DNA of 64,000 nt from Octopus vulgaris (taxonomy: Eukaryota): contig OX597822.1 in NCBI GenBank assembly GCA_951406725.2, forward strand, positions 42,718,001-42,782,000, given 5' to 3'. Position numbers and translations under genes: made by a program. Of this stretch, positions 10,091 to 61,590 are shown one piece after another; position 1 is the stretch's first letter; every line of letters begins with the position of its first letter. Under the pieces are notes generated by a model. That model ran no database searches. It was given only the letters and a program-made list of their open reading frames with translations, and had not been told where the DNA came from.

Positions 10091-10095
10091 GTTAG

Positions 10096-10372
10096 AATGA
10101 GTATCTCAAAGCATTTAGAATAATCTAATTAGGTAAGGTGAATTTGAAGTCTTACAGCTGTTTCTGGGGTAACCCAAGTGGTTAATTAGCATATCTGTGC
10201 ACTGGTTATTCCGTCATCAGAGACAAGGTATGAAAGTGTATGGATATGCTAACCAACCATTTGGGTTATCCCACAAACAGCTGTAAGACTTCAAATTCAC
10301 CTTATCCTAATTAAATTATTCTAAATGACACTTGAGATCTCGTTCTGCCTTGGTTTTGATTTTTCCTTTAAT
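10096..10372. mobile_element. Fold-back element with hammerhead (Penelope inverted-pLTR-like)
   Basis: ~100-bp inverted arms (10096-10196 vs 10243-10345), a short tail, then (TA)n. Confidence 0.7.
10149..10224 (-). ncRNA. Type I hammerhead ribozyme motif inside an inverted-repeat element
   Basis: Minus strand GUCU-CUGAUGA-c-GGAAUAACC...GGUUACCCC-a-GAAAC-AGCU-GUA/AGAC. Stem I and stem III match the 57972 motif; stem II is longer and partly mismatched. Confidence 0.65.
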
Positions 10373-12321
10373 ATATATATATATATATATATACACATAA
10401 GGATATTATTGTTTACAATAATATCAAATGGTAGAGCATGTGTAAATAAGTGAAACATTTATGGGTCGTAGTAGTCTTCTGGCTGCTATTTCAGTGTCCT
10501 GGCGCCACCCTTAATGACAGACAGATAGATAGATTTATAGATAGATAGATATGACCGGTCTATGAGGTTAGACCGGTCATCATCATCATCGTTTAACGTC
10601 CGTCTTCCATGCATACACATGGGTAGGACGGTTGACGGGAGCCGGCCAGGTAGAAGACGAACAGAAGGTTTATCTATATACTCTACTCCTCTAGAATTTA
10701 TTAAAGTCTGCTTCTTTTTCGGATTCATGATTTATTAACGACACACACACACTGTATAAGATGGGAAGGATAAAAAAAGAAGGCAGTGCTATAATGATGT
10801 TGGTGATGAAAGAAATCAAAATAGACTGTATGTGTGTTAATGATATTACCGGTGATAACTTCAGGGTTAGAGGTGGTGCGAACAAGGTGTGTATGGAATT
10901 TACGTTTATCCCTGGCAGTCTAAATATCAATAAAGTTTTATCTTTATATTCTATCTGTTTATCAATCTTTGGTACACAAATATACAGTCATTCATACATA
11001 CACAGATTCACACACACACACACACACACGTACTTACATTCACACGTCGCTGTTGCTATTCATCTTTTGTCTATGTGTAGTATTTCATGTGTAAATACCA
11101 AATAGATGAATAGATGGAGATAACATGCAATAGATTGATTAAAAAGGATGGTAGAAAGTACGTCGTACACACAGTACTCACACACACAAGGTGTGTATTA
11201 TGTATCTGTGCCTATGTGCGTATGCTTGCATGTATGTGCGGGCACACACACACACACACATGCATGCATGCACAAGCACACTGCAACCAAATAATGGAAG
11301 CCGGGAGTAAGATAGAAACGACAAGTAAACTCGGCATAAGGCATTTTACACAGCAATCAATCAACAAAGTGTGCTTGACACGTATAGAAACAATGAACCA
11401 TACATATACACACAATGAGACACGTACACACATACACACAACGAGACACGTATTTATATATACACAATGGTATCAGCTATTTCATCAGTTACATAGATGA
11501 CTTGCTTAAATAAAAGTACCAACCAAGGCAGATGGAATCACAGATCAACCAAACGGATAAGGAAGTGTGTGAGTGTATAGAGATAAGGGGTGGGGCAGCA
11601 TTTTATCTATATATCTATCCCAACATCATCATCATCATCATGATCATCATCATCGCCAGAACAGTATTTAAATTCGAAAAGAAACTAGTCGTCAGGCGGC
11701 CACATAATCGGGGAGCAGTTCCACAAATGTTAACTGCCTTAAAATGATCCCTGAATTTGTGGCAACGTAATGCACAATAATTGAGAAAAGCGGGGGGGGG
11801 GAAGGTGGTGGTGGTGTTGGCGGCGGCAATTGGTAGCACTGACAGGAGAAGATGAAGAAAGTAAGAAAGAAATAGAAGAAGTAGAAGGAGAATGTAGGCG
11901 GAGGTGAAGAAGAAGGAAAGAAAGAATGTAATTATGAGAAACGAGAGAGAGAGAGAGGGAGAGAGAGATTAAAAAAAAAAAAAAAAATGATGAAATGGAG
12001 ATCTGAGAGGATGGAGAGAATTACAAGCGGCAAAGGTGTGTGAATCAGGACGGTGAAAAGAGACAGACACACACACAATAGATACTAGTTTATACAAATA
12101 TTTCTCTACATAATTATACACATACATACACACATTTCCCTAACATACTCAGTACACACACACACACACATACAGACACACACTACAGAAGCGTTACAAT
12201 TCTACTCTTATATTACACAAACATATGTACATCTTGTACTTATAAAAACACACACTAACATAAGAACTTCCTGAAACAGACACACCTTTAACAAATGTGA
12301 GCTTGTGCGCGCGCATGTATG

Positions 12322-35224: not shown

Positions 35225-35995
35225 GAAGGTGGCGAGCTAGCAGAATTGTTAGCACGCCGGGTGAAATGCTTAGCGGTATTTCGTCCGCCGCTACGTTCTG
35301 AGTTCTCATTCCACCGATGTCGACTTTGCAATTCATCCTTTCGGGGTCGATTAAATAAGTACCAGTTACGCACTGGGGTCGATATAATTGACTTAATCCG
35401 TTTGTCTGTCCTTGTTTGTCCTCTCTGTGTTTAGTCCCTTGTGGGTAGTAAAGAAATAGGTATTTCGTCCGCTGCTACATTCCGAGTTCTCATTCCACCG
35501 ATGTCGACTTTGCCATTCGTCCTTTCGGGATCGATTAAATAAGTACCAGTTACGCACTGGGGTCGATCTAATCGACTTAATCCGTTTCTCTGTCCTTGTT
35601 TGTCCTCTCTGTGTTTAGCCCCTTGTGGGTAGTAAAGAAATAGATATTTCGTCCGCTGCTACGTTCCGAGTTCTTATTCAACCGATGTCGACTTTGCCAT
35701 TCGTCCTTTCGGGATCGATTAAATAAGTACCAGTTACGCACTGGGGTCGATCTAATCGACTTAATCCGTTTCTCTGTCCTTGTTTGTCCTCTCTGTGTTT
35801 AGCCCCTTGTGGGTAGTAAAGAAATAAATATTTCGTCCGCTGCTACGTTCCGAGTTCTTATTCCACCGATGTCGACTTTGCCATTCATCCTTTCGGGATC
35901 GATGATATAAGTACCAGTTACGCGCTGGGGTCGATGTAATTGACTATACCCTCCCCCAAATTTCAGGCCTTGTGCTTATAAATAGAAAGGATTAT
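35225..35995 (+). repeat. Tandem array of SINE family A, 184-bp unit
   Basis: TATTTCGTCCGC recurs at 35277, 35461, 35645 and 35829. Confidence 0.9.
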
Positions 35996-48690: not shown

Positions 48691-49825
48691 GTTAAAGGCG
48701 GTGAGCTGGCAGAGTTGTTAGCACGCTGAAGGAAATGCTTAGCGGTATTTCACCTGTCACTACATTCTGAGTTCAAAATCCGCCAAGCTTGACTTTGCCT
48801 TTCATCATTTCAGGGTCGATAAATTAAGTACCAGTTATGCACTGGAGTTGATATAATTGACTAGCTCCCTCCCCTCAAATTTCAGGACTTGTCCCTTCAG
48901 TAGAGAGAATTATTATTATTGTCATTATTATGGCATGTAAAATGTACTATCCAAACATAATTGATGCCAGGCCCGCCTGATTGGCTTCTGTGCTGGTGGC
49001 AAGTAAAAAGCACCCACTACACTCTCAGAGTGGTTGGCATTAGGAAGGGCATCCAGCTGTAGAAACATTGCCAGATCAAGACTGGAGCCTGGTGCAGCTG
49101 CTGGCTCTCCAGACCTCAGTCAAACTGTCCGACCCATGCCAGCATGGAAAATGGACGTTTAAACGATGATGATGATGAGGATGTGGTGAGCAGACAGAAT
49201 CATTAGCACACCAGACAAAGTGCTTAGTGACACTTTGTCCATCTTTACATCTTGAGTTCAAATTCCACCAATGTCAACTTTGCGTTTCATTCTCTTGGGG
49301 TTAATAAAAATAAGTACCAGACAAACACTGGCATTGATGTAATTAATGAACCCCTTTTCTACAAAATTTCAGGCTTTGTGCCTATAGAAGAAAGGATTAT
49401 TATTACAAGGGCAGTGGCTAGCAGAGTTGGTAAAGTATTGGAGAAAATTCATTGTAGCATTTTAGTTATGTACTCTTTACATACTGATTTCAAATCCTGC
49501 AGGTGTTGACTTGGCATTTTGTTCATCTAATGAAATAAAGTATTAGTTAATGAAAGAAGTACCAGCTATATTTTGGTGTTCACTTTGATTGATTACAGGT
49601 CTTCCCCCTGTTTCATAGCATTCAAAGATAGGAATTATCATTAATCCTGTAGCTGCAAAAGTGATCTACCCATGCTTCACATAAATGTTAAATATTTTAT
49701 TTGTGTGTTTTTCTCTCTTTGATTTCTTTTTTCTTTTCTTTTTTTTTTCCAACAGGTATTCTAATCTTTCATTCTATTAGATTTTGGTAAATTTGGTATC
49801 AACAGGAACAAATTCTTCAAGCATC

Positions 49826-50531
49826 ATGTCTCGTTCTGTGTTGTTGTTACTTACTTCACCGATTCCAAAGTTGAAATCAAAGGTACATGCAATCTTGCAG
49901 GCAACTAAACAATATGCAAAGAACTCGCTCTATATCCAACTTCAGCCAATGCAAAAGCCTTCAACACCCAGTTCTGCTGCAGTGTTTAAGCTGCAGCATG
50001 TCGCACCAACAGAAGATGCCTTCCACCTGATGCAACAATTCTATCAGACCAATGCTGCTTTATTCAAACAAATAGATCTTCGGATCATCTTAGATTCTTT
50101 TGGTGCTGCCCCCGTACCTGATCCTGTGGTTACAAAAACTACAACTTCATCATCTGGGCAAGACCAAACTTACCAGTCTTTGAGGAACTTTGACATCATA
50201 CTGCATGATTTTATTACGTCTGACGCCAACCACAAAAACAGATTCTTGCATGATGTTGCACATTGCTTTCCCAAGTGTGATCTGGGTCAAAATTTTGAGA
50301 ACATTGTGCCTCTTCCCTTACCCCAAACGCCATTGAACGATGATGCCTCACCGAGAACAACTGAAGACACTTCAGGAGTAGCCTCAGTGGTAATGACCAC
50401 ATATGACCATGTCGTGCTGGGTGGAACCTTCGACCGGTTGCATGCAGGACACAAAGTGTTGCTCACCCAGGCGTGTCTCCTCTCGTCCCGTGCTGTCATG
50501 ATTGGAGTAACAGATGACAACTTTGCTGCAA
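49826..50531 (+). CDS. COASY: Bifunctional coenzyme A synthase, first coding exon (N-terminal region plus start of the phosphopantetheine adenylyltransferase domain)
   Basis: Translation MSRSVLLLLTSP...YDHVVLGGTFDRLHAGHKVLLTQACLL...IGVTDD contains the GGTFDxLHxGH (HxGH) nucleotidyltransferase motif of PPAT/COASY. A strong polypyrimidine tract and CAG acceptor end at 49755 (exon starts 49756), the ATG is at 49826, and the donor is A|GTAATT after 50531 (phase 1). Confidence 0.9.
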
Positions 50532-50721
50532 GTAATTTTAGTATTTTTTTGTGACTCCACTCACCACTGCCATTACTAAACACATGCACACTTATATATG
50601 GAGTATATATATATATACAGAGAAAGAGATAGATAGATAGAGAGAGAGAGAAAGAGAGTTTCAAAAATATATTTGTGCATGCACATCACAGCGATAAACA
50701 TGAACATTCATACATACATAA

Positions 50722-50973
50722 AATAAATGTTCCTTCTCGAGCCATGCCAGGCTCATAAGGGCTGGTTTCCTGGTTTCAGTGGCGTAGAAATTTACTACCT
50801 GGACAGGATGCCGGTCCGTTGCAGGGTTACTCATTTTTGCCAGCTGAGTGGACTGGAGCAACGTGAAATGAAGTGTTTTGCTCAAGAACACAATGCATCA
50901 CCCGGTCCAGGAATCGAAACCACAACCTTACGATCATGAGTTCAACACCCTAACCACTAAGCCATGCACCTCT
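50722..50973 (-). mobile_element. tRNA-derived SINE family C (other copies at about 4092-4430, 5840-6170, 9490-9850, 18690-19010, 20775-21060, 59590-59830)
   Basis: Head GAGGTGCATGGCTTAGTGGTTAGGG...TTCGATTCC and shared core TTCACGTTGCTCCAGTCCACTCAGCTG. Confidence 0.8.
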
Positions 50974-51006
<33 letters not shown>

Positions 51007-51100
51007 CACACACATATATACATATGCATACAGCTTGGATTATAAATCTACCTACATACTATATATCTGTCTATCTTTCTACATACATATATATATATAT

Positions 51101-51415
51101 AAAACAATTGCAGCATGGAAGGTGTTTATAAGCCATTTAAGAAACACACAAAAACCGTTAGATTCACTTCAACATTTAAACTTAATTTGTCAAAATATTT
51201 TCGTCGCTTTGAGATGCAGCAGGAAGTTTTGTCAGTGAACAGGTCGCAGTCTCAAAGCGACGAAAATATTTTGACAAATTAAATTTAAATGTTGAAGTGA
51301 GTCTAACAGTTTTTGTGTGTTTCTTAAATGGCTTATAAACACCTTCCATGCTGCAATTGTTTTCGTTCCAGCACATGATCTCAGATCAGGTCACTTGCTA
51401 TGCAAGTACATCTCC

Positions 51416-51417
<2 letters not shown>
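51101..51417 (+). mobile_element. Fold-back element (inverted arms of ~113 bp plus unique tail), Penelope inverted-pLTR-like
   Basis: 51101-51214 is a near-perfect reverse complement of 51250-51363. The central hammerhead motif is followed by a ~55-bp tail, with (TA)n on both flanks. Confidence 0.75.
51228..51278 (+). ncRNA. Hammerhead ribozyme motif with swapped G3-C8 core pair
   Basis: UUUGUCA-GUGAACA-g-GUCGC(AGUCUCAAA)GCGAC-GAAA-AUAU-UU/UGACAAA: 7-bp stem I, 5-bp stem II, palindromic stem III (AAAUAUUU). The core is GUGAACA instead of CUGANGA. Confidence 0.65.
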
Positions 51418-51455
<38 letters not shown>

Positions 51456-51458
<3 letters not shown>

Positions 51459-51656
51459 TAATCCTTTCCATATCATGGTTTATTATTTAAGCTTATGTCG
51501 ATTCCTCCGTGGTGTTGTTTTGCATTTATAATAAAATAAATTTATACAAATTATATAAATAATAATACAAAATATACACTACTGTTTCTACTTTGTGGAT
51601 TTTCACCTATCACAAGGTTTTGGAATGTAACATCTGCAATAGTCAAGGGATTACTG
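51456..51656. mobile_element. Tc1/mariner (Tigger-like) MITE
   Basis: TA|CAGTAATCCTTT ... AAGGGATTACTG|TA. Confidence 0.7.
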
Positions 51657-52186
51657 TATCTATATATAGATAGATAAATAGATTTATCGTAGAAACCATA
51701 CCAAATCAGGTTGGAACCTGGTGCAGCTCCCTGGCTCATCAGTTTTCAGTCAAACCATTCAACCCATGGCAGCATGGAAAGCAGATGTCAAATGATGATG
51801 ATGATGATAGTATGTTGGAAGGTTTATAATCCAAGCTGTGTCCTCTTGAAGCACTTTTGCTTATTCCAATACTTCAAAATTGTACACAAGAGGTGTGCAT
51901 AAGAGTTGAAAAATACTGCTAATGTTTTTTGCAGAGTGGCTACTTATTAAAACAGAAGATTAGAAAAATTTTTGGTTATATTCATCATTGCACATGTTTC
52001 ATTTGATTAATCTGTCTGAAGAATTTCAAAGAGGAGATATATCTTACCTGTTTCCCCTACATGTACAGTTTCATAACTCCTATTAGCAAATGAAATAAGT
52101 GTAATGATTAATAAATTATACCGAAAATTTTCCAGTTTCTTGTTTTATATATATATATATGTTTTTACTGGTGAAGGCCTGTTTAC

Positions 52187-52245
52187 AGGGTTACCCTTGG
52201 GTTTCTTGCCATAAAGAGTATCTTTATGATGTGTCATCAGACCCT
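52187..52245 (-). ncRNA. Type I hammerhead ribozyme motif
   Basis: Minus strand AGGGU-CUGAUGA-cacau-CAUAAAGA(UAC)UCUUUAUG-gcaa-GAAAC-CC(AA)GG-GUA/ACCCU: perfect 5-bp stem I and intact core; the base of stem II is imperfect. Confidence 0.7.
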
Positions 52246-52560
52246 AAGACTTGTTGTCCTATGGCCTCTTTAAAGTATGGAGGGGAAAATGAACTGGATA
52301 TAAACAATGAGTGTTGTCTCCCTCTTCTGGTGGTTATCAGTTTCTGGCTATGTCGTCCTCCTTCAGCTATGCCACCTGTCAGCTGTGAGGGTAGAAAGCA
52401 GGGGGTTATCTCCCACTCTCATCAGCAATCAATTTCCAGCCATGGTGTAAATGTTATCATTAATACCGCTATTATCGTTATGTGGTTTCCAAAATGCTAA
52501 TAGGAATCTCCTGAAATGGAAACAAAGCTTGAAAATCTGTTCTGGAGTTCAGTATATTCA

Positions 52561-52592
<32 letters not shown>

Positions 52593-52604
52593 TAGCAGTA
52601 TATA

Positions 52605-53643
52605 CTAGCAGTATCGCCCGGCGTTGCTCGGGTTTGTTTCGACCTGCTGGAATTGGAATTTTTGAAAAGTAAAAATTTTGCATTATGTAGCTTGTTATTC
52701 TCTTCAAGTGAACATTTTTCTGGTTGCGTGTCAGCAGTGAAAAAATCGTAAAAAATAGGGATTTTCATAGAAAAAAGCACCTTTTTGATGTAAATAATTT
52801 TTGCTGTTAACATGGTCCGATTTGAATTTTATCTTCTACGGAAGGAAGAGCAACCCTTCTATCATACTCTCAATTTTGGTCAACTTGTGCCGCAGGGTCT
52901 CGGAGGAGATAGTGTTAGTTGAAGGCTACCAAACCTGGCGCACACAGACAACTTCAGCTTTATATGTAGAGAGATAACACACACACATTAATACACATAC
53001 ATACACACACACTCTCTCACACACACAGACACACACACACGCACACACACACACACACCTTCTTAGCTTACAATTTTCTTTCAACAATTGACACTGTCAT
53101 ATATGTATATGTTTGCATGTCTATGTGTGTAAAGAGAAAGTGTGCTAATAGGCGGAGTAAGCCTTTGAAGTGAGAGAGGGAAATCGTAAAATATTGAGTT
53201 TTTTCAAATTTTTGCTTAATTGGGGGTCAAATTGAAAGAAATTTATATGCCATGACCGAATGGAATGTATTCGAAAAATCATAGGTAAATTCCAATTGAA
53301 GAAATTCTGTGAGGAGTAAATCATTATGTATTTATTTGTTTGTTTGCTCTGTATTTTTTTTGAGTAGTGGTTTAAGGTACACTTGCAAAGAGAAAGTAGG
53401 AGAAAGTATGGTAATAGCAGGAGTGAAGCAGTTGAAATTAGAGAGGCAAATCGTAAAATATTTACTTTTCTCGAATTTTTGCTTAATTGGGGGTCAAATT
53501 GAAAAAACTTTATATGCCATGACCCAATCGAATCTACTTCGAAAAATCATAGGTAAATTCTAATTGAAGAAATTCTATATTGTAGAATTGTATTAAAAAG
53601 GAACATGGGAACAGGCAGAGAAAATCTGCTTTTATCATAAGAG

Positions 53644-53644
<1 letters not shown>
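52605..53644 (-). mobile_element. Non-autonomous Helitron (composite)
   Basis: Minus-strand 3' end CCCGAGCAACGCCGGGCGATACTGCTAG|T (hairpin + CTAG) and 5' end A|TCTCTTATGATAAAAGCAGA. A second, internal 5'-like end lies near 52974. Confidence 0.7.
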
Positions 53645-53710
<66 letters not shown>

Positions 53711-53909
53711 AATTATTACATTATATAAAAGGGCTTAGTAAAATAAATTACTTTGCCGCATACTGAACTCATTAGAAATAGCAGCTAAAAAACTTTTTTA
53801 AAAGCTATTTCTAATACTTAAAGAAAATCTCTCTCATATAGTGTTTGCTTGACTCAACTCACAAAAGTTTGGGGGTAAGGACATCAAAAAATCAAATGCA
53901 AAGGTTATT

Positions 53910-53961
53910 TGAGAACGTACGTTTCAAGATTAGTCAAAACGACACTTCTATCATCAGCTCA
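53910..53961 (-). ncRNA. Hammerhead ribozyme motif, copy 1 in direct repeat
   Basis: Minus strand UGAG-CUGAUGA-u-AGAAGUGUC(GUUUU)GACUAAUCU-u-GAAAC-GUAC-GUU/CUCA, with palindromic stem III AACGUACGUU. Confidence 0.65.
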
Positions 53962-54457
53962 GAAACTCCTTAGTTTGGATTTGAAAACACTGAAAGTAAG
54001 AACATACCCTTTCGAAGATCTGCTCGTAACTAACAGTGCCAACAAACTCAAATAAGCAAGCGAAGAATTTCTGTTCTCCCCTTTCCACCAGCGTGGGTTA
54101 AAATCATCAAACACTATGCTTATTTCGGTAAAATCCGAAGCATTAATTAGAGGGAGATTAATTATAATTTCAACAATTGAGGGTAAAATTAATTAATTAT
54201 TAATCAATTTCACCAAGTGTTCAGTATGCAAAGGGACCATTCAAGGCGAATTCAAATTATTACATTATATAAAAGGGCTTAGTAAAATAAATTACTTTGC
54301 CGCATACTGAACTCATTAGAAATAGCAGCTAAAAAACTTTTTTAAAAGCTATTTCTAATACTTAAAGAAAATCTCTCTCATATAGTGTTTGCTTGACTCA
54401 ACTCACAAAAGTTTGGGGGTAAGTTTGGACATCAAAAAATCAAATGCAAAGGTTATT

Positions 54458-54509
54458 TGAGAACGTACGTTTCAAGATTAGTCAAAACGACACTTCTATC
54501 ATCAGCTCA
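54458..54509 (-). ncRNA. Hammerhead ribozyme motif, copy 2 in direct repeat
   Basis: Identical to the 53910-53961 motif, offset by 548 nt. Confidence 0.65.
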
Positions 54510-54528
54510 GAAACTCCTTAGTTTGGAT

Positions 54529-54564
<36 letters not shown>

Positions 54565-54841
54565 CAAGAAAGTTAGAGGTTGTGAATCCAAACAACTAAG
54601 GGATAATATCTATCCAATATACTGCTGGTAGAATACCCAATTATTAACACACAAGTATTTTTTATTTCATTGCAATTACATTACCAAGTGTACTAAATGG
54701 GTGATGGTAAAGAGTTATTTTATCATTAACTAGCAGAATTGCCCGGTGTTGCTTGGGGCTGAATTGCTTGAAAGTACTATTAATGATTGCACTGAATTAT
54801 GATGATTATTCAGACAAATATTGATATAAGCTTACGGTGGG

Positions 54842-55345
54842 AGATGACTTAACGATCAAACGTGTGCCATTGCATTGTTTTGGGGGAACCAAATTTCTAA
54901 TGAGCATTATAGGGGCACCAACTTTAAGTTTGAGAAAGTGTGGTGGTAGTCCGGGGTGCTCAAAGGAATTGAGTACCTCTATTGGATAGTTGATGACGTC
55001 CTCTGGGTCAGGAGTTGTATCGATAGACTGATATACATAGACTTCCCCAGGAATGAGTTTTAGCATTTCATCATTAATATGGTGAACAGTTTTATTCCTC
55101 GTGGGGCCAGTATAGCCTTTTTGCCAATCCAATCCATATTCTGATAATTAGCTTGTAGATCTGGGAACACTGCATCTCTGAGATCAGAAGGCGTCTTAAC
55201 AATGGTACAAATGGAATCGATGGCAATATTACCATTTTCATCCCCTGGTATTTTGCCTTCGCCAAGTGCAAGGAGGGTGTGAGGAAATGCTGCTGATGTG
55301 ATATTACGTCGCATATGAGCACGCATATTGGTGTGAAGTTTGAGA
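54842..55345 (-). pseudogene. Helitron PIF1-like helicase fragment, frameshifted
   Basis: LLALGEG...VFPDL...AILAP followed by YQSID...YPIEVLNS...GLPPHFLKLKVGAPIMLIRNL...CNGTRLIV, typical Helitron/PIF1 helicase motifs. Confidence 0.85.
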
Positions 55346-55574
55346 GTTACTTCCCTTTATTAAAAAAACTATGCATTAAAATGGAAAAAAATGATGGTAA
55401 ATTATTTGTAAAATCATAGACTCATTGTAGACGCGCGCTAATACCCAGAAGGGCTCGATATGAATCACGACTATAAGATACCCGGTTTTGGTTAAACTGC
55501 ATCGCAAAATGTGGGAGTAGTTAGGAATCTAAATCGGAGTAGACAGACACACAACCTTTCTTTTATATATAAAT

Positions 55575-57001
55575 ATTTTCGTCCTAAAAAACTTTGTATG
55601 GATTGAATGGTTACCTCTATGGAAATATATACACGCACATTATACATACATGTGTGTATAGATGAATATATAAATACATTTAAATATCTATATACACTTT
55701 TGGGCGATCTTTCTGTTTCTTAGAGATAACTTTAGATCTTATTTTCGTCCTAAAAACCTTTGTATGGAGTGAATGGTTACCTCTATGGAAATATATACAC
55801 ACACGTTATACATACATGTGTGCATAGATGAATATATAACTACATTTATATATCTATATACACTTTTGGGCGATCTTTGTGCTACTTAGAGATAACTTTA
55901 GATCTTATTTTCGTCCTAAAAACCTTTGTGCGGAGTGAATGGTTACGTCTATAGAAATATATACACACACATTATACATACATCTGTGTATAGATGAATA
56001 TATAAATACATTTAAATATCTATATACACTTTTGGGCGATCTTTCTGCTACTTGTATATACTTATAAATACATTTAAATATCTATATACACTTTTGGGCG
56101 ATCTTTCTGCTACTTGGATATAGGTCTTATATTCGTCCTAAAAAACTTTCCTGTCACACACTCACGCACACACACACACACACGCGCACCCTCACACACA
56201 CACAGACGCACACACACACACACACACGCACGTTAGCTTACAATTTTATTTATATATTTGCGTGTCTATGTGTGTAAAGAGGAAGTGGGAGGCAGAGTGA
56301 AAGAGTCACTCACTACAGAAAGTGAATTACTTTCACTTTTACCTCTATGGAAATATATACACGCACATTATACATACATGTGTGTATAGATGAATATATA
56401 AATACATTTAAATATCTATATACACTTTTGGGCGATCTTTCTGTTTCTTAGAGATAACTTTAGATCTTATTTTCGTCCTAAAAACCTTTGTATGGAGTGA
56501 ATGGTTACCTCTATGGAAATATATACACACACGTTATACATACATGTGTGCATAGATGAATATATAAATACATTTATATATCTATATACACTTTTGGGCG
56601 ATCTTTGTGCTACTTAGAGATAACTTTAGATCTTATTTTCGTCCTAAAAACCTTTGTGTGGAGTGAATGGTTACGTCTATAGAAATATATACACACACAT
56701 TATACATACATCTGTGTATAGATGAATATATAAATACATTTAAATATCTATATACACTTTTGGGCGATCTTTCTGCTACTTGGATATAGGTCTTATATTC
56801 GTCGTAAAAAACTTTCCTGTCACACACTCACGCACACACACACATACACACGCGCACACACACACGCGCACACACACACACACACTCACACACACACACA
56901 TTAGCTTACAATTTTATTTATATATTTGCGTGTCTATGTGTGTAAAGAGGAAGTGGGAGGCAGAGTGAAAGAATCACTCACTACAGAAAGTGAATTACTT
57001 T
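55575..57001. repeat. 166-bp tandem repeat with higher-order ~728-bp duplication
   Basis: ATTTTCGTCCTAAAAA recurs at 55575, 55741 and 55907. The block starting at 55613 is repeated from 56341. Confidence 0.9.
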
Positions 57002-57431
57002 CCTGTCAACACACAGTGAATTAGTTTCAGTTTATTCGTTGCACACTGTGTGTGTGCGTTTGCATGTGCTGTAACCCAAACTAAGAAAAGCATTTGACAT
57101 ATACACCAGAATGTGAGTTCTCTCTAAATTTTGCTTAATTGGGGTTGAAATTTTAAAAACCGGACCTGGCAAAACCTGATGCATTCTACTCTTAAAAATG
57201 CTAGGTAAATTGTAATTGAAGAAATCCTATATTGTCGATTTCTATAACTGACAAAGGGAGGCAGATAAAATCTGCCTTTTATAATAAGAGATTTATAGAG
57301 CAATAACAATGGAGGGGATCAGTAGGTGGTATTCATCAACTTTTAGACATAATATTATGTCAATTTATTTATATATCATCAGTAAATCACAAATCTGAAA
57401 GAGAAGCACACTCTAAGTTATAGTAGAGTAT

Positions 57432-57638
57432 TTAGATAAAGGTAGTTATGGCCTGTCTATAGGGTTACCCAGGGTATCATGTCTATAAAACACTTAGCTT
57501 TACATATACATCTTGTCAGAAAGAGAGGTTATAAGCCACCAGCCATTAGGGTCTGATGAGACATATGTAAAGCTAAGAGCTCTATGGACATCATACCCTG
57601 AGTAACCCCATAAACAGGTCATAACTATTTTCATCTAA
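57432..57638. mobile_element. Fold-back element with degenerate hammerhead, related to the 52187 family
   Basis: Imperfect inverted arms. The + strand has AGGGT-CTGATGA...(CATA for GAAA)CCCTGAGTA/ACCCC at 57548-57609 and shares GGCCTGT.TA.AGGGTTACCC with 52176-52196. Confidence 0.6.
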
Positions 57639-57971
57639 ATATATATAAATTAAGCACAAAATGGAAAAAATTTTTGTTCAGCAAACAAATTGACTACCAT
57701 GGGTTATTATTTTTTTTTTTTCGTGAGTTTGCTTGTTGATAAAAAATTTTCTCTATTTTCTCCATTTAAATTTGATTCCTGATAAACTTTTGTTTATTTT
57801 GTTATTGCCTGTATCCTATGAGCATAGTATGCTTGCATATCCATGCCCAGGGTTAACATAGGTAATTCATAACGGTAGTAATAACGGATATTCTTATCCC
57901 TTAGATGGTTATTCCAACTGCTAACTCTACTTACCTTATATATAATTCGAACTCAAATATTTTCTCACACC

Positions 57972-58019
57972 GTCTCTGATGAAGGGATATCCATAATATC
58001 CCAGAAACAGCTGTAAGGC
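57972..58019 (+). ncRNA. Type I hammerhead ribozyme motif (Penelope pLTR-type)
   Basis: GUCU-CUGAUGA-a-GGGAUAU(CCAUA)AUAUCCC-a-GAAAC-AGCU-GUA/AGGC: intact core, 7-bp stem II, palindromic stem III (ACAGCUGU), 4-bp stem I. Predicted cleavage after 58015. Confidence 0.75.
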
Positions 58020-58371
58020 TATTTCTTTATAAATGTTTTGAAAACTCCTCACAACCTTGGATTTGTTATCTCATTCTGTCTAATATATGCTAATACATAC
58101 ATTCTATCTATCTAGGTTGTCCTTCAGGACACCCCTACATACATTCATATAAGTATATATATGTGTGTGTGTGTGTATATGTGTATGTATACACTTGCAT
58201 TCACACACACAAACATTCATAGTAATACACACACTAACACATCACAGTGATACATGGGTGGACAGAAATGAATGCACACATATATATACACATATTAAAC
58301 ACACATCTATCTAGCTATCCAATGTGTGTGAGTGTGAGTGTATATACAAAATGTATGTATGTAAATATATA

Positions 58372-58517
58372 TGTGTGTAACAGAAGCCTCCAGTGAGGAT
58401 CAGATGCATGATCCCTGGTTTACAAGACCAGTGCTCTCACCACTGAACTAGAGCCCTGGTCTTGTAAACCAGGAGTCGTGAGTTCAATCCTCACTGGGAG
58501 CTTCTGTAACACACACA
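58372..58517. pseudogene. Inverted pair of tRNA-Thr(TGT)-derived copies (tRNA pseudogene / SINE fold-back)
   Basis: Anticodon arm CTGGT-CTTGTAA-ACCAG occurs on both strands. The minus copy (58386-58454) has the D-arm AGTTCAGTGGTGAGAGC but a decayed T-arm; the plus copy (58449-58501) has T-arm GTGAGTTCAATCCTCAC but no 5' end. Confidence 0.75.
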
Positions 58518-58804
58518 CACACACACACATACATATGTAATTATGTATATATACACAGACAAGTGCATAGACCTGTGTTGATGTTGTTATTTTTGTTGTC
58601 AACAGTTATATTGATTAGCTGAAACCTGAAGTGTAACAGCACTGAGGTTGTGTGTCACAGTTAGTGCGTTACAGTGTGGTTAAATATTTTAATTTATGTT
58701 TTTTTTCTTCTATTCCCCCCCCACCACCACCAATCATCACCACCACTTCCATATGATGTCACATGATATTTCACCTACTCCACTCAACAACCAATGTCCA
58801 ACAG

Positions 58805-59019
58805 GGAAGGTCCTCAGTGAACTACTTGAGCCACTAGAAATGCGGATGAACTCTGTCCGGGATTTCATTGAGGATGTCAAGCCTGGCATCAAAGTGGAGT
58901 TAGTGCCCCTGCAAGACATGTATGGACCAACTATCACCGATGCAACAATGGACTGTCTGGTGGTTACCAAGGAGACGAGTAAAGGGGCTACAATGATAAA
59001 CACAGAACGGTCAAAAAGG
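58805..59019 (+). CDS. COASY: COASY coding exon 2 (PPAT domain)
   Basis: Acceptor CAG ends at 58804. The phase-1 join A+GG gives Arg and continues KVLSELLEPLEMRM...VPLQDMYGPTITDATMDCLVVTKETSKGATMINTERSKR, matching PPAT motifs DxYGP, LVVSxET and IN..R. Donor AGG|GTGATT is phase 0. Confidence 0.9.
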
Positions 59020-61590
59020 GTGATTTGTCTTTTTTTTTTGATACTTTATATTTTAAATTTCATTGTTTTATTTCAAGAGAATACATGCTGTTACTGCTTA
59101 ATCCTCAGGACAATCCTTATTGAATAGGCCTATGATCAAAAGCTTTCTAGCTATGACCATCCCATCTTTTACTGAGACACACTGACCTGAGTGTCACATG
59201 ATCCAACATGTTTAATGCTAAGATGGTAGGTTATGATTTGAAGAGATTTGGCTGTTATTTCCAGCAGATTGAACAGCCACATAGAGGCTTATTTTTTTGA
59301 AGTAGTGTATAGGTGTTTTCACTGAAGCACCTTTGAACGTAGGCCCATTCTATCTAGGCTGACTGAGAGTTAAACAACATTGCACACACACACACACACA
59401 CATACACACAGGCATGTGTACACATGTCTGAGAAATACTCAACCATTTATATGCTAATTCAATAAGTCAGTAATTCTCTTGATTGTCCATCCATTCATCT
59501 TCTCCACTCACCATTCCTGGGGGTGTCACAGACATAGTGTCCTCAGGCACCTCCTCCACAGAGTCCTATCAGATGCAACTGTCATTAGTAGTGGAGGTGC
59601 ATGGCTTAGTGGTTACGGTGTTGGGCTCATGATCATAAGATTGTGGTTTCCATTCCTGTACCGGGCACTGCATTGTGTTTTTGAGCAAAACATTTTGTTT
59701 CACATTGCTCCAGTCCACACAGCTTGCAAAAATGAGTAACCGTGTAGCAGACTAGTGTCTCATCCAGGGTAAAATACATAGGTTACAGAAACCAGGAAAC
59801 CAGCCGTATGGGTCAGTATGATTCAGGAAGGAGCTTATCAACTGTTATTACACTTTCTGGCTAGATTCCCAAGCATGACCAGTTATGGATATTCAGCCAT
59901 CTTTTGTACTCTAGGCACAGGACTGAAATTTTTGGGGAGGGGGCCAGTCGATTTGATCAACTCCAGTATACAACTGGTACTTAATTTATCAATCCTGAAA
60001 GGATAAGTCAACCTCAGCAGAATTTGAACTCAGAACATAAAAATAGATGAAATACTTATAAACATTTTGCCTGGTGTGCTAATGTTTCTGCCAGCTTGCC
60101 ACTTTAACCCACCTCAATATTCTTTTCTGCTTTATGCACAAGGCCTGAAATTTCGTGGGAGGGGGCAAGACGATTTGATTGATCCCAGTGTGCAACTGGT
60201 ACTTAATTTATCAACCCCAAGAGGATGAAAGGCAAAGTTGACCTTGGCGGAATTTGAACTCAGAATGTAAAGACAGATGAAATACCACTAAGCATTTCAC
60301 CCACCATGCTAACGTTTCTGCCAGGTCACCGTTTCAGCTGTCTTGTTCTTCATCTGCCCCTATGTTTGCTGCCAACTGGCTTGACTTGGCTTGGAGAATC
60401 CATCTTGTGATTCTCTCCTGTGACATTCTAAGCACGTCTGTAGTACTGGTGCTGTGACCTTACAATGCAAAGAAGTAGTGGTTCAACCTAGAGAGACTCA
60501 CTGATCGCTGAGCCATGCATTCTATCAGACTCACTAAGTTTAGTTCAGTTTTTGTGCCTATCCTCACCTTTGGCCATAAAAGTTGAGGTAATGACCAAAA
60601 GAATATGAGAGTGAATACAAGCATCTGAAATGGGATTCCTCTGAAGGATCTCTGGAATAATATCACTCATTTTGTATACTGTTTATATTACTTGGTGTTA
60701 TCTTGATTGTTGATTTCATTACATTTTGGCTGTTGTATGCTCCAACCTACTAGTGTCTTCTGCTGAACTCGTGTTGTTTTGAAATTTCGAACCTAACCCT
60801 TTATTTGATTCCTGGGGGTATGCGGTTCTCATTCCTCATTTCATGAATATAAAATTATAATGTTAATCAATTGGTCAAACAACTGGAATAGACACTTGAA
60901 ATTGGCAAACACCCGTTGACATACATTACCTATTTGGCTACTTTGCTATTGCTTACACACCACACACACATCCTATATAAGTGTACACAAGCATACTTAC
61001 ATATAGACATACACAAACTTGATTACAGACTCACTCAAACACATACTCAGGCATGCACATGCGCACACAGTGGTAACCTCCCAACTTGTGTGCTAGACTT
61101 AATCCATAACTTGGTCTTTAGATGTCCTTAGCACAGCCTACTCTGTTGTTTACATTCAGATTATATCTCAAGAGTGTATATGCATAGGATAATTTGGTAT
61201 CTTGTTGCGCTGCTTCTTTCTGTTAAAACGTGTCTGTTGTGACTTCTTCCCCTCTTGAACTCCTAAAAGTGTTGAGGAGACTTTTTAAAAGGATCAAGGG
61301 TGCTGCCCTTCCTTCACTAAAAATGACTAAATAAATAATACGCTCACATAAATGGAAATACACACGAACATAACATAACACGACACAAATACATACATAC
61401 CACAGATGCAGATACATGAAGACTTACACCACACAAACACACGTGTATACGTATAAATGTGCACGCGCAAACACAAATCTACATACAGATACACATGCAC
61501 AAATACGCATACACAAACACACATGCACACTACACAAACAAATACATACCCTCCATTTTATTGTTTGTTTCATCGTATTTTCCCCTGTAG

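What the first reader, a model, noticed from the sequence alone, without database searches (positions are those of the whole stretch)
53711..54533. ORF-less LTR-like element with two hammerheads 548 nt apart: candidate retrozyme / circular RNA
Seen: near-identical ~275-bp direct repeats flank a ~270-bp non-coding spacer, each with an intact minus-strand hammerhead core with self-complementary stem III (AACGUACGUU), and the element sits in (TA)n. Established: retrozymes and Penelope-like pLTRs carry tandem hammerheads whose cleavage releases unit-length RNAs that can circularise, and palindromic stem III motifs cleave as dimers. Inference: the two copies pair in cis and release a ~548-nt RNA antisense to the COASY intron. 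Repeat identity suggests a recent insertion.
Basis: partly seen in the sequence, partly recalled or inferred. Interest (0 to 1): 0.8.

Follow-up and report, generated by a model that had tools for sequence, protein, structure and literature searches.

The report
Octopus retrozyme-type hammerhead repeat insertion
This is a one-and-a-half-unit copy of a very abundant 548-base non-coding octopus repeat that carries a hammerhead self-cutting RNA motif and was likely pasted into a TA microsatellite by Penelope-like retrotransposon enzymes, so it is a new cephalopod member of the known animal 'retrozyme' class, and the circular RNA it would make is predicted, not shown.

Summary
Repeats 53710-53985 and 54254-54533 have no substitution and one 4-nt indel. 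Each carries a minus-strand type I hammerhead core with a palindromic helix III; the GUU|C sites lie 548 nt apart, in (TA)n, in a COASY intron of an Octopus vulgaris-like genome. Correction: it is not LTR plus unique spacer. The whole 548-nt unit is a high-copy family: 4,386 contigs of one DNA run lie on it, all 29 bins are covered in 4 of 4 runs laid, and head-to-tail joints occur in 3 of 4. The locus is therefore 1.5 tandem units. The ribozyme resembles Penelope-type hammerheads (PMC4209133). Best reading: a non-LTR retrozyme, i.e. a non-autonomous parasite of Penelope-like elements, a class already described (PMC7229834; bioRxiv 2026.07.22.740005). Cleavage, circularisation, transcription and the partner element were not shown. 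Folding predicts a blocked ribozyme in the circle. The test of variants against the structure was not significant (31 of 40, P=0.075). I found no cephalopod retrozyme in print. The scan has noted similar elements in other genomes (e1-7858566, e1-2578096), but not this sequence.

The parts
53644..53710 (.). (TA)n microsatellite at the 3' end (RNA sense) of the insertion; likely target
   Evidence: junction
53710..53985 (-). partial second unit (pseudo-LTR, 276 nt); lacks the 4 extra letters, as most family contigs do
   Evidence: table 4 (deletion in 20 contigs, 102,552 of 119,153 summed depth in X1)
53910..53961 (-). type I hammerhead motif, downstream copy; C3 at 53957, palindrome 53923-53914, predicted cut 53914|53913
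53914..54461 (-). 548-nt unit between the two predicted cleavage sites (predicted monomer / circle); GC 0.33; no ORF
   Evidence: tables 2, 5, 5c
54065..54073 (-). predicted blocker strand pairing with 53968-53960, which overlaps the 5' strand of helix I of the ribozyme (pair probability 0.91-0.95 in the circle)
   Evidence: prediction only
54314..54360 (-). long hairpin; one compensatory A-U to C-G change (54316/54358) in family contigs
   Evidence: table 3 (equal depths 31.9/31.9 in X17, 35.8/35.8 in X10)
54254..54533 (-). first repeat (pseudo-LTR, 280 nt), 5' end of the insertion in RNA sense; carries 4 extra letters at about 54423-54426
54458..54509 (-). type I hammerhead motif, upstream copy; C3 at 54505, palindrome 54471-54462, predicted cut 54462|54461
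54533..54562 (.). (AT)15 microsatellite at the 5' end of the insertion
50532..58805 (+). host intron of COASY (8.3 kb), antisense to the ribozyme strand

Best explanation
The locus is a 1.5-unit, head-to-tail copy of a high-copy 548-nt non-coding repeat with a Penelope-type hammerhead motif, likely a non-LTR retrozyme (non-autonomous parasite of Penelope-like elements) that was likely reverse-transcribed from a multimeric or circular RNA into a (TA)n target. Steps: (1) shown: non-coding unit, tandem junction, high copy number, hammerhead motif, (TA)n flanks. (2) Inferred from known retrozymes: a tandem master locus is transcribed on the ribozyme strand, two ribozymes share their palindromes to form helix III and cut at GUU, and a host RtcB-type ligase closes the 548-nt monomer. 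(3) Predicted: in the monomer a strand from the 'spacer' and an alternative hairpin sequester the ribozyme (active fold costs about 10 kcal/mol), which would keep a circle from re-cutting. (4) Inferred: a Penelope-like endonuclease nicks (TA)n, the DNA end primes on an AU-rich stretch of the RNA (here at 54254/53710), and the reverse transcriptase runs 1.5 times round or along the template, which creates the apparent LTRs. This copy is antisense to COASY, so the host pre-mRNA carries no ribozyme and the copy is most likely a passenger. My odds: family is retrozyme-like and PLE-mobilised 0.75; family makes circles in vivo about 0.5; this locus itself releases a circle about 0.15.
For: Unit-wide high copy number: 4,386 (X1), 1,616 (X10, a second organism label), 169 (X13) and 64 (X17) contigs laid, 29 of 29 bins covered in each, with identities spread from 99+ to under 90% (4 of the 24 listed runs were laid). 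Head-to-tail joints from the right end back to 53986 or 54009 in X1, X13 and X17, with variant letters, so not this locus alone; none listed for X10 (tables 5, 5c). The share of contigs running on into unlike sequence is 0, 0, 0.03 and 0.05. Predicted helices cross the repeat/spacer borders (54312-54302 with 54229-54219; 54073-54065 with 53968-53960). The hammerhead fits the PLE consensus in the supplement of PMC4209133 (U-rich 5' side, CUGANGAH, GAAAN-palindrome-NUH, short helix I, AU-rich 3' side). Its U.U-plus-AGA/UCU base of helix II and palindromic tetraloop recur in the PLE-associated Drosophila willistoni motif, and GUU triplets are common in that alignment, including the mollusc Lottia. 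A U.U at the base of helix II is also described for the axolotl retrozyme ribozyme HHR_Amex2, which cleaves. PLE clades are reported to prefer microsatellites, (TA)n among them (passages, PMC8557442). PLEs make up 6.83% of the O. vulgaris genome, with 31 recently active families (PMC13282606). Two single contigs in X17 hint at RNA-templated ends: one copy ends in (TA)n at a different AU-rich site (54163), and one begins within 1 nt of the predicted cut (54462) (table 7; 2 of the 24 loose ends shown, 179 not shown). The unit folds far better than shuffles as a circle (z -7.65 minus strand, -5.62 plus strand; 30 shuffles each).
Against: No cleavage, circle, transcript strand or partner element was observed; no genome was available, so copy structure genome-wide and homology to a coding PLE could not be tested. 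The conserved G10.1-C11.1 pair of the PLE consensus is absent, and Rfam does not recognise the motif. The active fold is not favoured in any context folded: helix I probability at most 0.16 in a nascent fragment, 0.01 or less in the 823-nt transcript, 0.001 in the circle. The 10-nt palindrome also lets A14 pair with U17, which would be expected to slow cleavage (my inference). Family variants fit the predicted structure in 31 of 40 shown substitutions versus 27.1 +/- 2.3 expected (P 0.075), and the plus strand does about as well (27 vs 23.0, P 0.095), so the structure is not validated (40 of 85 variants were shown). Among 22 GC-matched 548-nt stretches of this repeat-rich window, five other stretches fold to lower energy than the unit. 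The two repeats differ by a 4-nt indel, which one pass round one circle would not make unless it arose as an error or later. Only 1 of 9 Xenopus dimer elements cleaved in vitro.
Confidence: 0.75

Rival explanations
1. The locus is a 5'-truncated copy of a coding Penelope-like element whose non-coding terminus is itself a tandem of hammerhead-bearing units; the ribozymes are passengers and no independent small RNA exists.
For: The hammerhead is of the PLE type. PLEs are 6.83% of this genome, and most PLE insertions are 5'-truncated. An earlier scan note reached this reading for a shark-like genome (e1-7858566; not tested here). Logan contigs of a high-copy repeat are short and break at branches, so a junction into an ORF could be missed; 179 loose ends were not shown.
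Against: The right end joins back to the spacer start in three runs, the share of contigs running on into unlike sequence is 0 in both DNA runs, the unit has no coding remnant, and predicted helices tie 'repeat' to 'spacer'.
Confidence: 0.17
2. The repeat spreads at the DNA level (satellite-like unequal exchange, or capture by a Helitron); the hammerhead is a relic of a PLE terminus and is no longer used.
For: A Pif1/Helitron helicase remnant lies 275 nt to the right (PF21530, E 3e-15). The active ribozyme fold is disfavoured and the test of variants against the structure is not significant. Local tandem amplification is proposed in the 2026 preprint.
Against: Both ends abut (TA)n sharply, and another copy ends in (TA)n at a different internal site, which fits target-primed insertion better. 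None of the 40 best-supported variants falls in the catalytic core, helix I or the palindrome (45 not shown).
Confidence: 0.05
3. It is a true LTR element (TRIM or plant-type LTR retrozyme) with two LTRs and an internal region, mobilised by Ty3/Gypsy enzymes.
For: Two near-identical ~275-nt direct repeats flank a ~270-nt non-coding stretch.
Against: The ribozyme is type I, not type III; the ends are not TG...CA and merge into (TA)n; another copy ends inside the 'internal' region at 54163.
Confidence: 0.02
4. The duplication is an assembly artefact.
For: The repeats have no substitution; no contig spans the whole locus.
Against: The head-to-tail junction exists in other samples, and the repeats differ by a 4-nt indel that is a real family polymorphism (table 4).
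Confidence: 0.01

Closest known systems
Animal non-LTR retrozymes (Cervera & de la Pena 2020, PMC7229834, read parts 2-4 of 6: end of methods, results, discussion; Li, Clavereau & Pollet 2026, bioRxiv 10.64898/2026.07.22.740005, read parts 1-3 of 5: whole main text)
   Same: Non-coding, low-GC tandem unit with a type I hammerhead, no PBS/PPT or true LTRs, high copy number, highly self-paired predicted monomer, proposed mobilisation by PLEs; U.U at the base of helix II as in axolotl HHR_Amex2.
   Different: The unit (548 nt) is longer than the 170-400 nt of the 2020 paper, though inside the 51-972 bp range of the preprint. The ribozyme is predicted to be blocked in the circle, which the 2020 paper reports for plant and some mussel retrozymes but not most animal ones. 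The host is a cephalopod, a group not in the main texts read (the 2020 supplement could not be read). Circles are not shown here.
Hammerheads in pseudo-LTRs of Penelope-like elements (Cervera & de la Pena 2014, PMC4209133, read parts 1-2 of 4 of the main text and part 2 of 3 of supplement file 2), especially the Drosophila willistoni motifs
   Same: CUGAUGA-U, AGA/UCU with an opposing U, GAAAN, palindromic tetraloop, short helix I, U-rich and AU-rich flanks, partial-tandem pseudo-LTR layout; D. willistoni also has 450-bp tandem repeats with such a ribozyme.
   Different: No RT/GIY-YIG ORF between the repeats; no G10.1-C11.1 pair; helix II is longer and interrupted.
Plant LTR retrozymes (PMC4918200, seen as search listing; features from passages in PMC6765202 and PMC7761336)
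   Same: Two ribozyme-bearing direct repeats around a non-coding centre; ribozyme predicted to be blocked in the circle.
   Different: They have type III ribozymes, true LTRs with PBS, PPT and 4-bp TSDs, and use Ty3/Gypsy enzymes; none of these is seen here.

Membership tests
Type I hammerhead ribozyme | Core CUGANGA...GAAA...NUH with three helices, open at helix I | tested here: met
   4-bp helix I, interrupted helix II, 2-bp plus palindromic loop helix III; 0 hits in 200 shuffled windows
Type I hammerhead ribozyme | G10.1-C11.1 closing pair of helix II (consensus over 80% in PLE motifs) | tested here: not met
   U.U followed by AGA/UCU; the same exception occurs in D. willistoni and a U.U in axolotl HHR_Amex2
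Type I hammerhead ribozyme | Match to Rfam hammerhead models | tested here: not met
   no hit at the gathering score or at E up to 10
Type I hammerhead ribozyme | Self-cleavage at NUH | not testable with these tools
   one X17 contig begins within 1 nt of the site, a hint only
Non-LTR retrozyme | Non-coding unit of a few hundred bp, GC under 50% | tested here: met
   548 nt, GC 0.33, longest Met-ORF 26 aa
Non-LTR retrozyme | Head-to-tail tandem with two consecutive complete type I hammerheads | tested here: met
   1.5 units with two intact motifs; joints in 3 of 4 runs
Non-LTR retrozyme | Multi-copy family in the genome | tested here: met
   4,386 contigs of run X1 on the unit, 29 of 29 bins; copy number itself not measurable
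Non-LTR retrozyme | Highly self-paired monomer | tested here: inconclusive
   z -7.65 against shuffles, but the variant test gave P 0.075 and five other window stretches fold lower
Non-LTR retrozyme | Linear and circular monomer RNA in vivo | not testable with these tools
   only contigs were available; they cannot show strand, ends or circles
Non-autonomous Penelope-like element | Homology to the pLTR or 3' end of an autonomous PLE | not testable with these tools
   no genome held; no hits in metagenome contigs
Non-autonomous Penelope-like element | Partial-tandem pseudo-LTRs and microsatellite target | tested here: met
   second (TA)n end; literature passages
Autonomous Penelope-like element | RT and GIY-YIG ORF | tested here: not met
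Plant-type LTR retrozyme | Type III hammerhead in true LTRs with a short TSD | tested here: not met
   type I topology; ends merge into (TA)n

The most novel reading that the evidence does not exclude
Octopus makes an abundant 548-nt circular RNA that locks its own hammerhead, like a viroid or plant retrozyme, and a (TA)n-targeting Penelope-like enzyme primes on it at whichever AU-rich stretch pairs with the target, so genomic copies start and stop at many points round the circle. The family would then be a large natural record that directly tests the long-proposed circular-template model of Penelope retrotransposition, in a phylum-level neighbour of the mussel case but in a group where no retrozyme was found in my searches.
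Probability: 0.25. Interest if true: 0.55.

Novelty: new member of a known kind. Interest (0 to 1): 0.33.

Why it matters
The class is known and the link to Penelope-like elements is already proposed in print, so the locus alone is not surprising. Its value is as a young, high-copy cephalopod example. How PLEs make more-than-unit insertions and what their hammerheads do are still open questions. Mapping the ends of many copies round the 548-nt unit, with one northern blot, would test the circular-template model. An effect on the host gene is unlikely because the ribozyme lies antisense to the COASY pre-mRNA.

Tried and rejected
Own genome: none held, so no genome-wide copy census and no search for the autonomous partner. 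Rfam: no hammerhead hit; the low-scoring miRNA and CRISPR hits are chance hairpins. Metagenome scans with two patterns: 0 hits. Viral contigs: 12 pattern matches, all with helix I of 0-1 bp and no homology beyond the motif, so chance. Sequencing runs: no RNA holder listed on record; eight rows are only guessed to be RNA, and the two of them that I laid (X13, X17) are contigs that cannot show strand, level or circularity, so they are used only as further samples of the family. The depth differences along the unit in X10 and X17 were not interpreted. No place with many molecule ends was listed (table 6). ARAGORN: no tRNA at 52000-59000. Sigma-70 promoter scan: at chance level and irrelevant to an animal. 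Pfam on 52 frames in the element and around the two other hammerheads: nothing at cut-off. Free folding does not give the hammerhead; ViennaRNA cannot model the double hammerhead, so its low cis-pairing value is weak evidence. Whether the form with 4 extra letters exists in other copies could not be resolved. Literature: no octopus or cephalopod retrozyme in searches; the giant squid genome paper lists 235 Rfam hammerhead-1 loci without analysis (passage); the O. vulgaris repeat paper and its supplement have 0 mentions of hammerhead or ribozyme. Lunse et al. 2017 was not available and is known here only through a review passage. The supplements of PMC7229834 and of the bioRxiv preprint could not be seen and may list cephalopod cases; repeat libraries (Dfam, Repbase) could not be searched. 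Earlier scan notes: no look-alike of this sequence.

Full report
Observation. The window shows two direct repeats, 53710-53985 and 54254-54533, with no substitution and one 4-nt indel, around a 268-nt stretch, between (TA)n runs at 53644-53710 and 54533-54562. On the minus strand each repeat holds a type I hammerhead motif: 4-bp helix I, CUGAUGA, a 26-nt helix II region, GAAA, the palindrome AACGUACGUU and a GUU|C site; the sites are 548 nt apart. A strict descriptor found 4 motifs in the window and none in 200 shuffled windows. Rfam does not recognise the motif. The unit has no ORF above 26 aa from a Met and no Pfam hit at cut-off. It lies in an 8.3-kb intron of COASY, antisense to the gene; the upstream exon is identical to a protein labelled Octopus vulgaris.

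What it is. No genome was held, so I used public runs. Of 24 runs listed, 20 hold part of the stretch, under three organism labels; I laid four of them on one unit, 53986-54533. All 29 bins are covered in all four, by 4,386, 1,616, 169 and 64 contigs, with identities from 99+ to under 90%. The 'spacer' is covered like the repeat. Joints from the right end back to the spacer start occur in X1, X13 and X17, with variant letters, and none is listed for X10. The share of contigs that run on into unlike sequence is 0 in both DNA runs. The 4-nt deletion of the left repeat is the majority form of the family (20 contigs in X1). So the locus is 1.5 units of a high-copy 548-nt repeat, the 'LTRs' are pseudo-LTRs, and an assembly artefact is very unlikely. 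Contigs give no copy number, strand or expression. Two single contigs in X17 are suggestive: one copy ends in (TA)n at 54163 rather than 54254, and one begins within 1 nt of the predicted cut. These are 2 of 24 loose ends shown; 179 were not shown.

The ribozyme. It fits the consensus for Penelope-associated hammerheads in the supplement of PMC4209133 except for the G10.1-C11.1 pair. The same U.U-plus-AGA/UCU base of helix II with a palindromic tetraloop appears in the PLE-associated motif of Drosophila willistoni, and GUU triplets are common in that alignment. A U.U at this place is described for an axolotl retrozyme ribozyme that cleaves 22% in an hour as a monomer and better as a dimer. The 8-nt palindrome forms a duplex of -9.8 kcal/mol with a second copy, in line with dimer cleavage. 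Against efficient cleavage: the active fold is never favoured in my foldings (helix I probability at most 0.16 in a nascent fragment, 0.01 or less in the 823-nt transcript; cis pairing of the palindromes 0.04), with the caveat that the program cannot represent a double hammerhead. In a 2026 preprint only 1 of 9 dimer elements cleaved.

The predicted circle. The 548-nt monomer folds to -144.5 kcal/mol as a circle, z -7.65 against 30 shuffles; the plus strand gives z -5.62. Several helices join 'repeat' to 'spacer'. One pairs 54073-54065 with 53968-53960, over the 5' strand of helix I (probability 0.91-0.95), and forcing the ribozyme costs 10.1 kcal/mol. A blocked ribozyme is what plant retrozymes, viroids and some mussel retrozymes show, unlike most animal ones. 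Support from variation is weak: 31 of the 40 variants shown are compatible with the structure against 27.1 +/- 2.3 expected (P 0.075), the plus strand does about as well (P 0.095), and there is one compensatory pair (54316/54358). Five other GC-matched stretches among 22 sampled in this repeat-rich window fold lower than the unit.

Mechanism. Shown: anatomy, tandem junction, high copy number, motif, (TA)n flanks. Inferred from PMC7229834 and PMC4209133: transcription of a tandem master, dimeric self-cleavage, ligation by an RtcB-type ligase, and more-than-unit reverse transcription by a PLE enzyme. Inferred from the junctions and from the microsatellite bias of PLE clades: priming of a nicked (TA)n target on an AU-rich stretch of the RNA. 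The host has ample PLEs (6.83%, 190 families, 31 recently active). Zero substitutions in 276 nt bound the divergence of the two repeats at about 1% (my estimate), which suggests an age under roughly 1-2 million years on the calibration quoted, unless gene conversion reset it. The 4-nt difference means either a dimer template with two unit variants or an error in or after copying; cannot tell which. Nothing shows that this intronic copy is transcribed on the ribozyme strand, and the COASY pre-mRNA carries the inactive strand.

Comparison and verdict. It works like, and meets the sequence-level criteria of, an animal non-LTR retrozyme; the defining RNA evidence and the homology to an autonomous PLE could not be tested. 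The class and its PLE link are in print. Searches found no cephalopod case; supplements I could not read may hold one. Earlier scan notes describe similar elements in other genomes but not this sequence. Verdict: new member of a known kind, interest 0.33.

Noticed in passing
window 57968-58030 (+), C3 at 57976: A second type of hammerhead-like motif (helix II GGGAUA/UAUCCC, palindrome ACAGCUGU, GUA triplet, 4-bp helix I with two G-U pairs) in the same COASY intron but SENSE to the pre-mRNA; an inverted repeat lies upstream (about 57429-57641). It probably needs a partner to cleave and is a single copy here.
   Followed up: partly
window 10094-10346, C3 at 10220 (-): A hammerhead-like motif with the same ACAGCUGU palindrome at the centre of a ~250-bp, 82%-identical inverted repeat, near (TA)n at about 10370-10400; resembles the inverted, 5'-truncated head of Penelope-like insertions. 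No Pfam hit nearby.
   Followed up: partly
window 54809-55356 (-): Pif1/Helitron-type helicase remnant (PF21530, E 3e-15) right of the element; the element may be nested in a decayed Helitron.
   Followed up: partly
window 49781-59124 (+): The public 244-aa COASY isoform P0001 ends just after the first PPAT exon, whereas the window has a further COASY exon at about 58806-59020; the public model looks truncated or alternatively ended.
   Followed up: partly
window about 54009-54014 (family variants tables 5c, 7): A subfamily carries an insertion of roughly 16 nt at the tip of the long rod, seen in X1, X13 and X17; other indels also tend to fall in loops, including loop 2 of the ribozyme (54486-54487).
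   Followed up: no
window 55574-56788 and 35277-35945: Tandem arrays with periods of 166 nt and 184 nt.
   Followed up: no
window 58433-58502 (+): tRNA-like match (34.4 bits, Rfam) next to a (CA)n run, probably the head of a tRNA-derived SINE; not called by ARAGORN.
   Followed up: no
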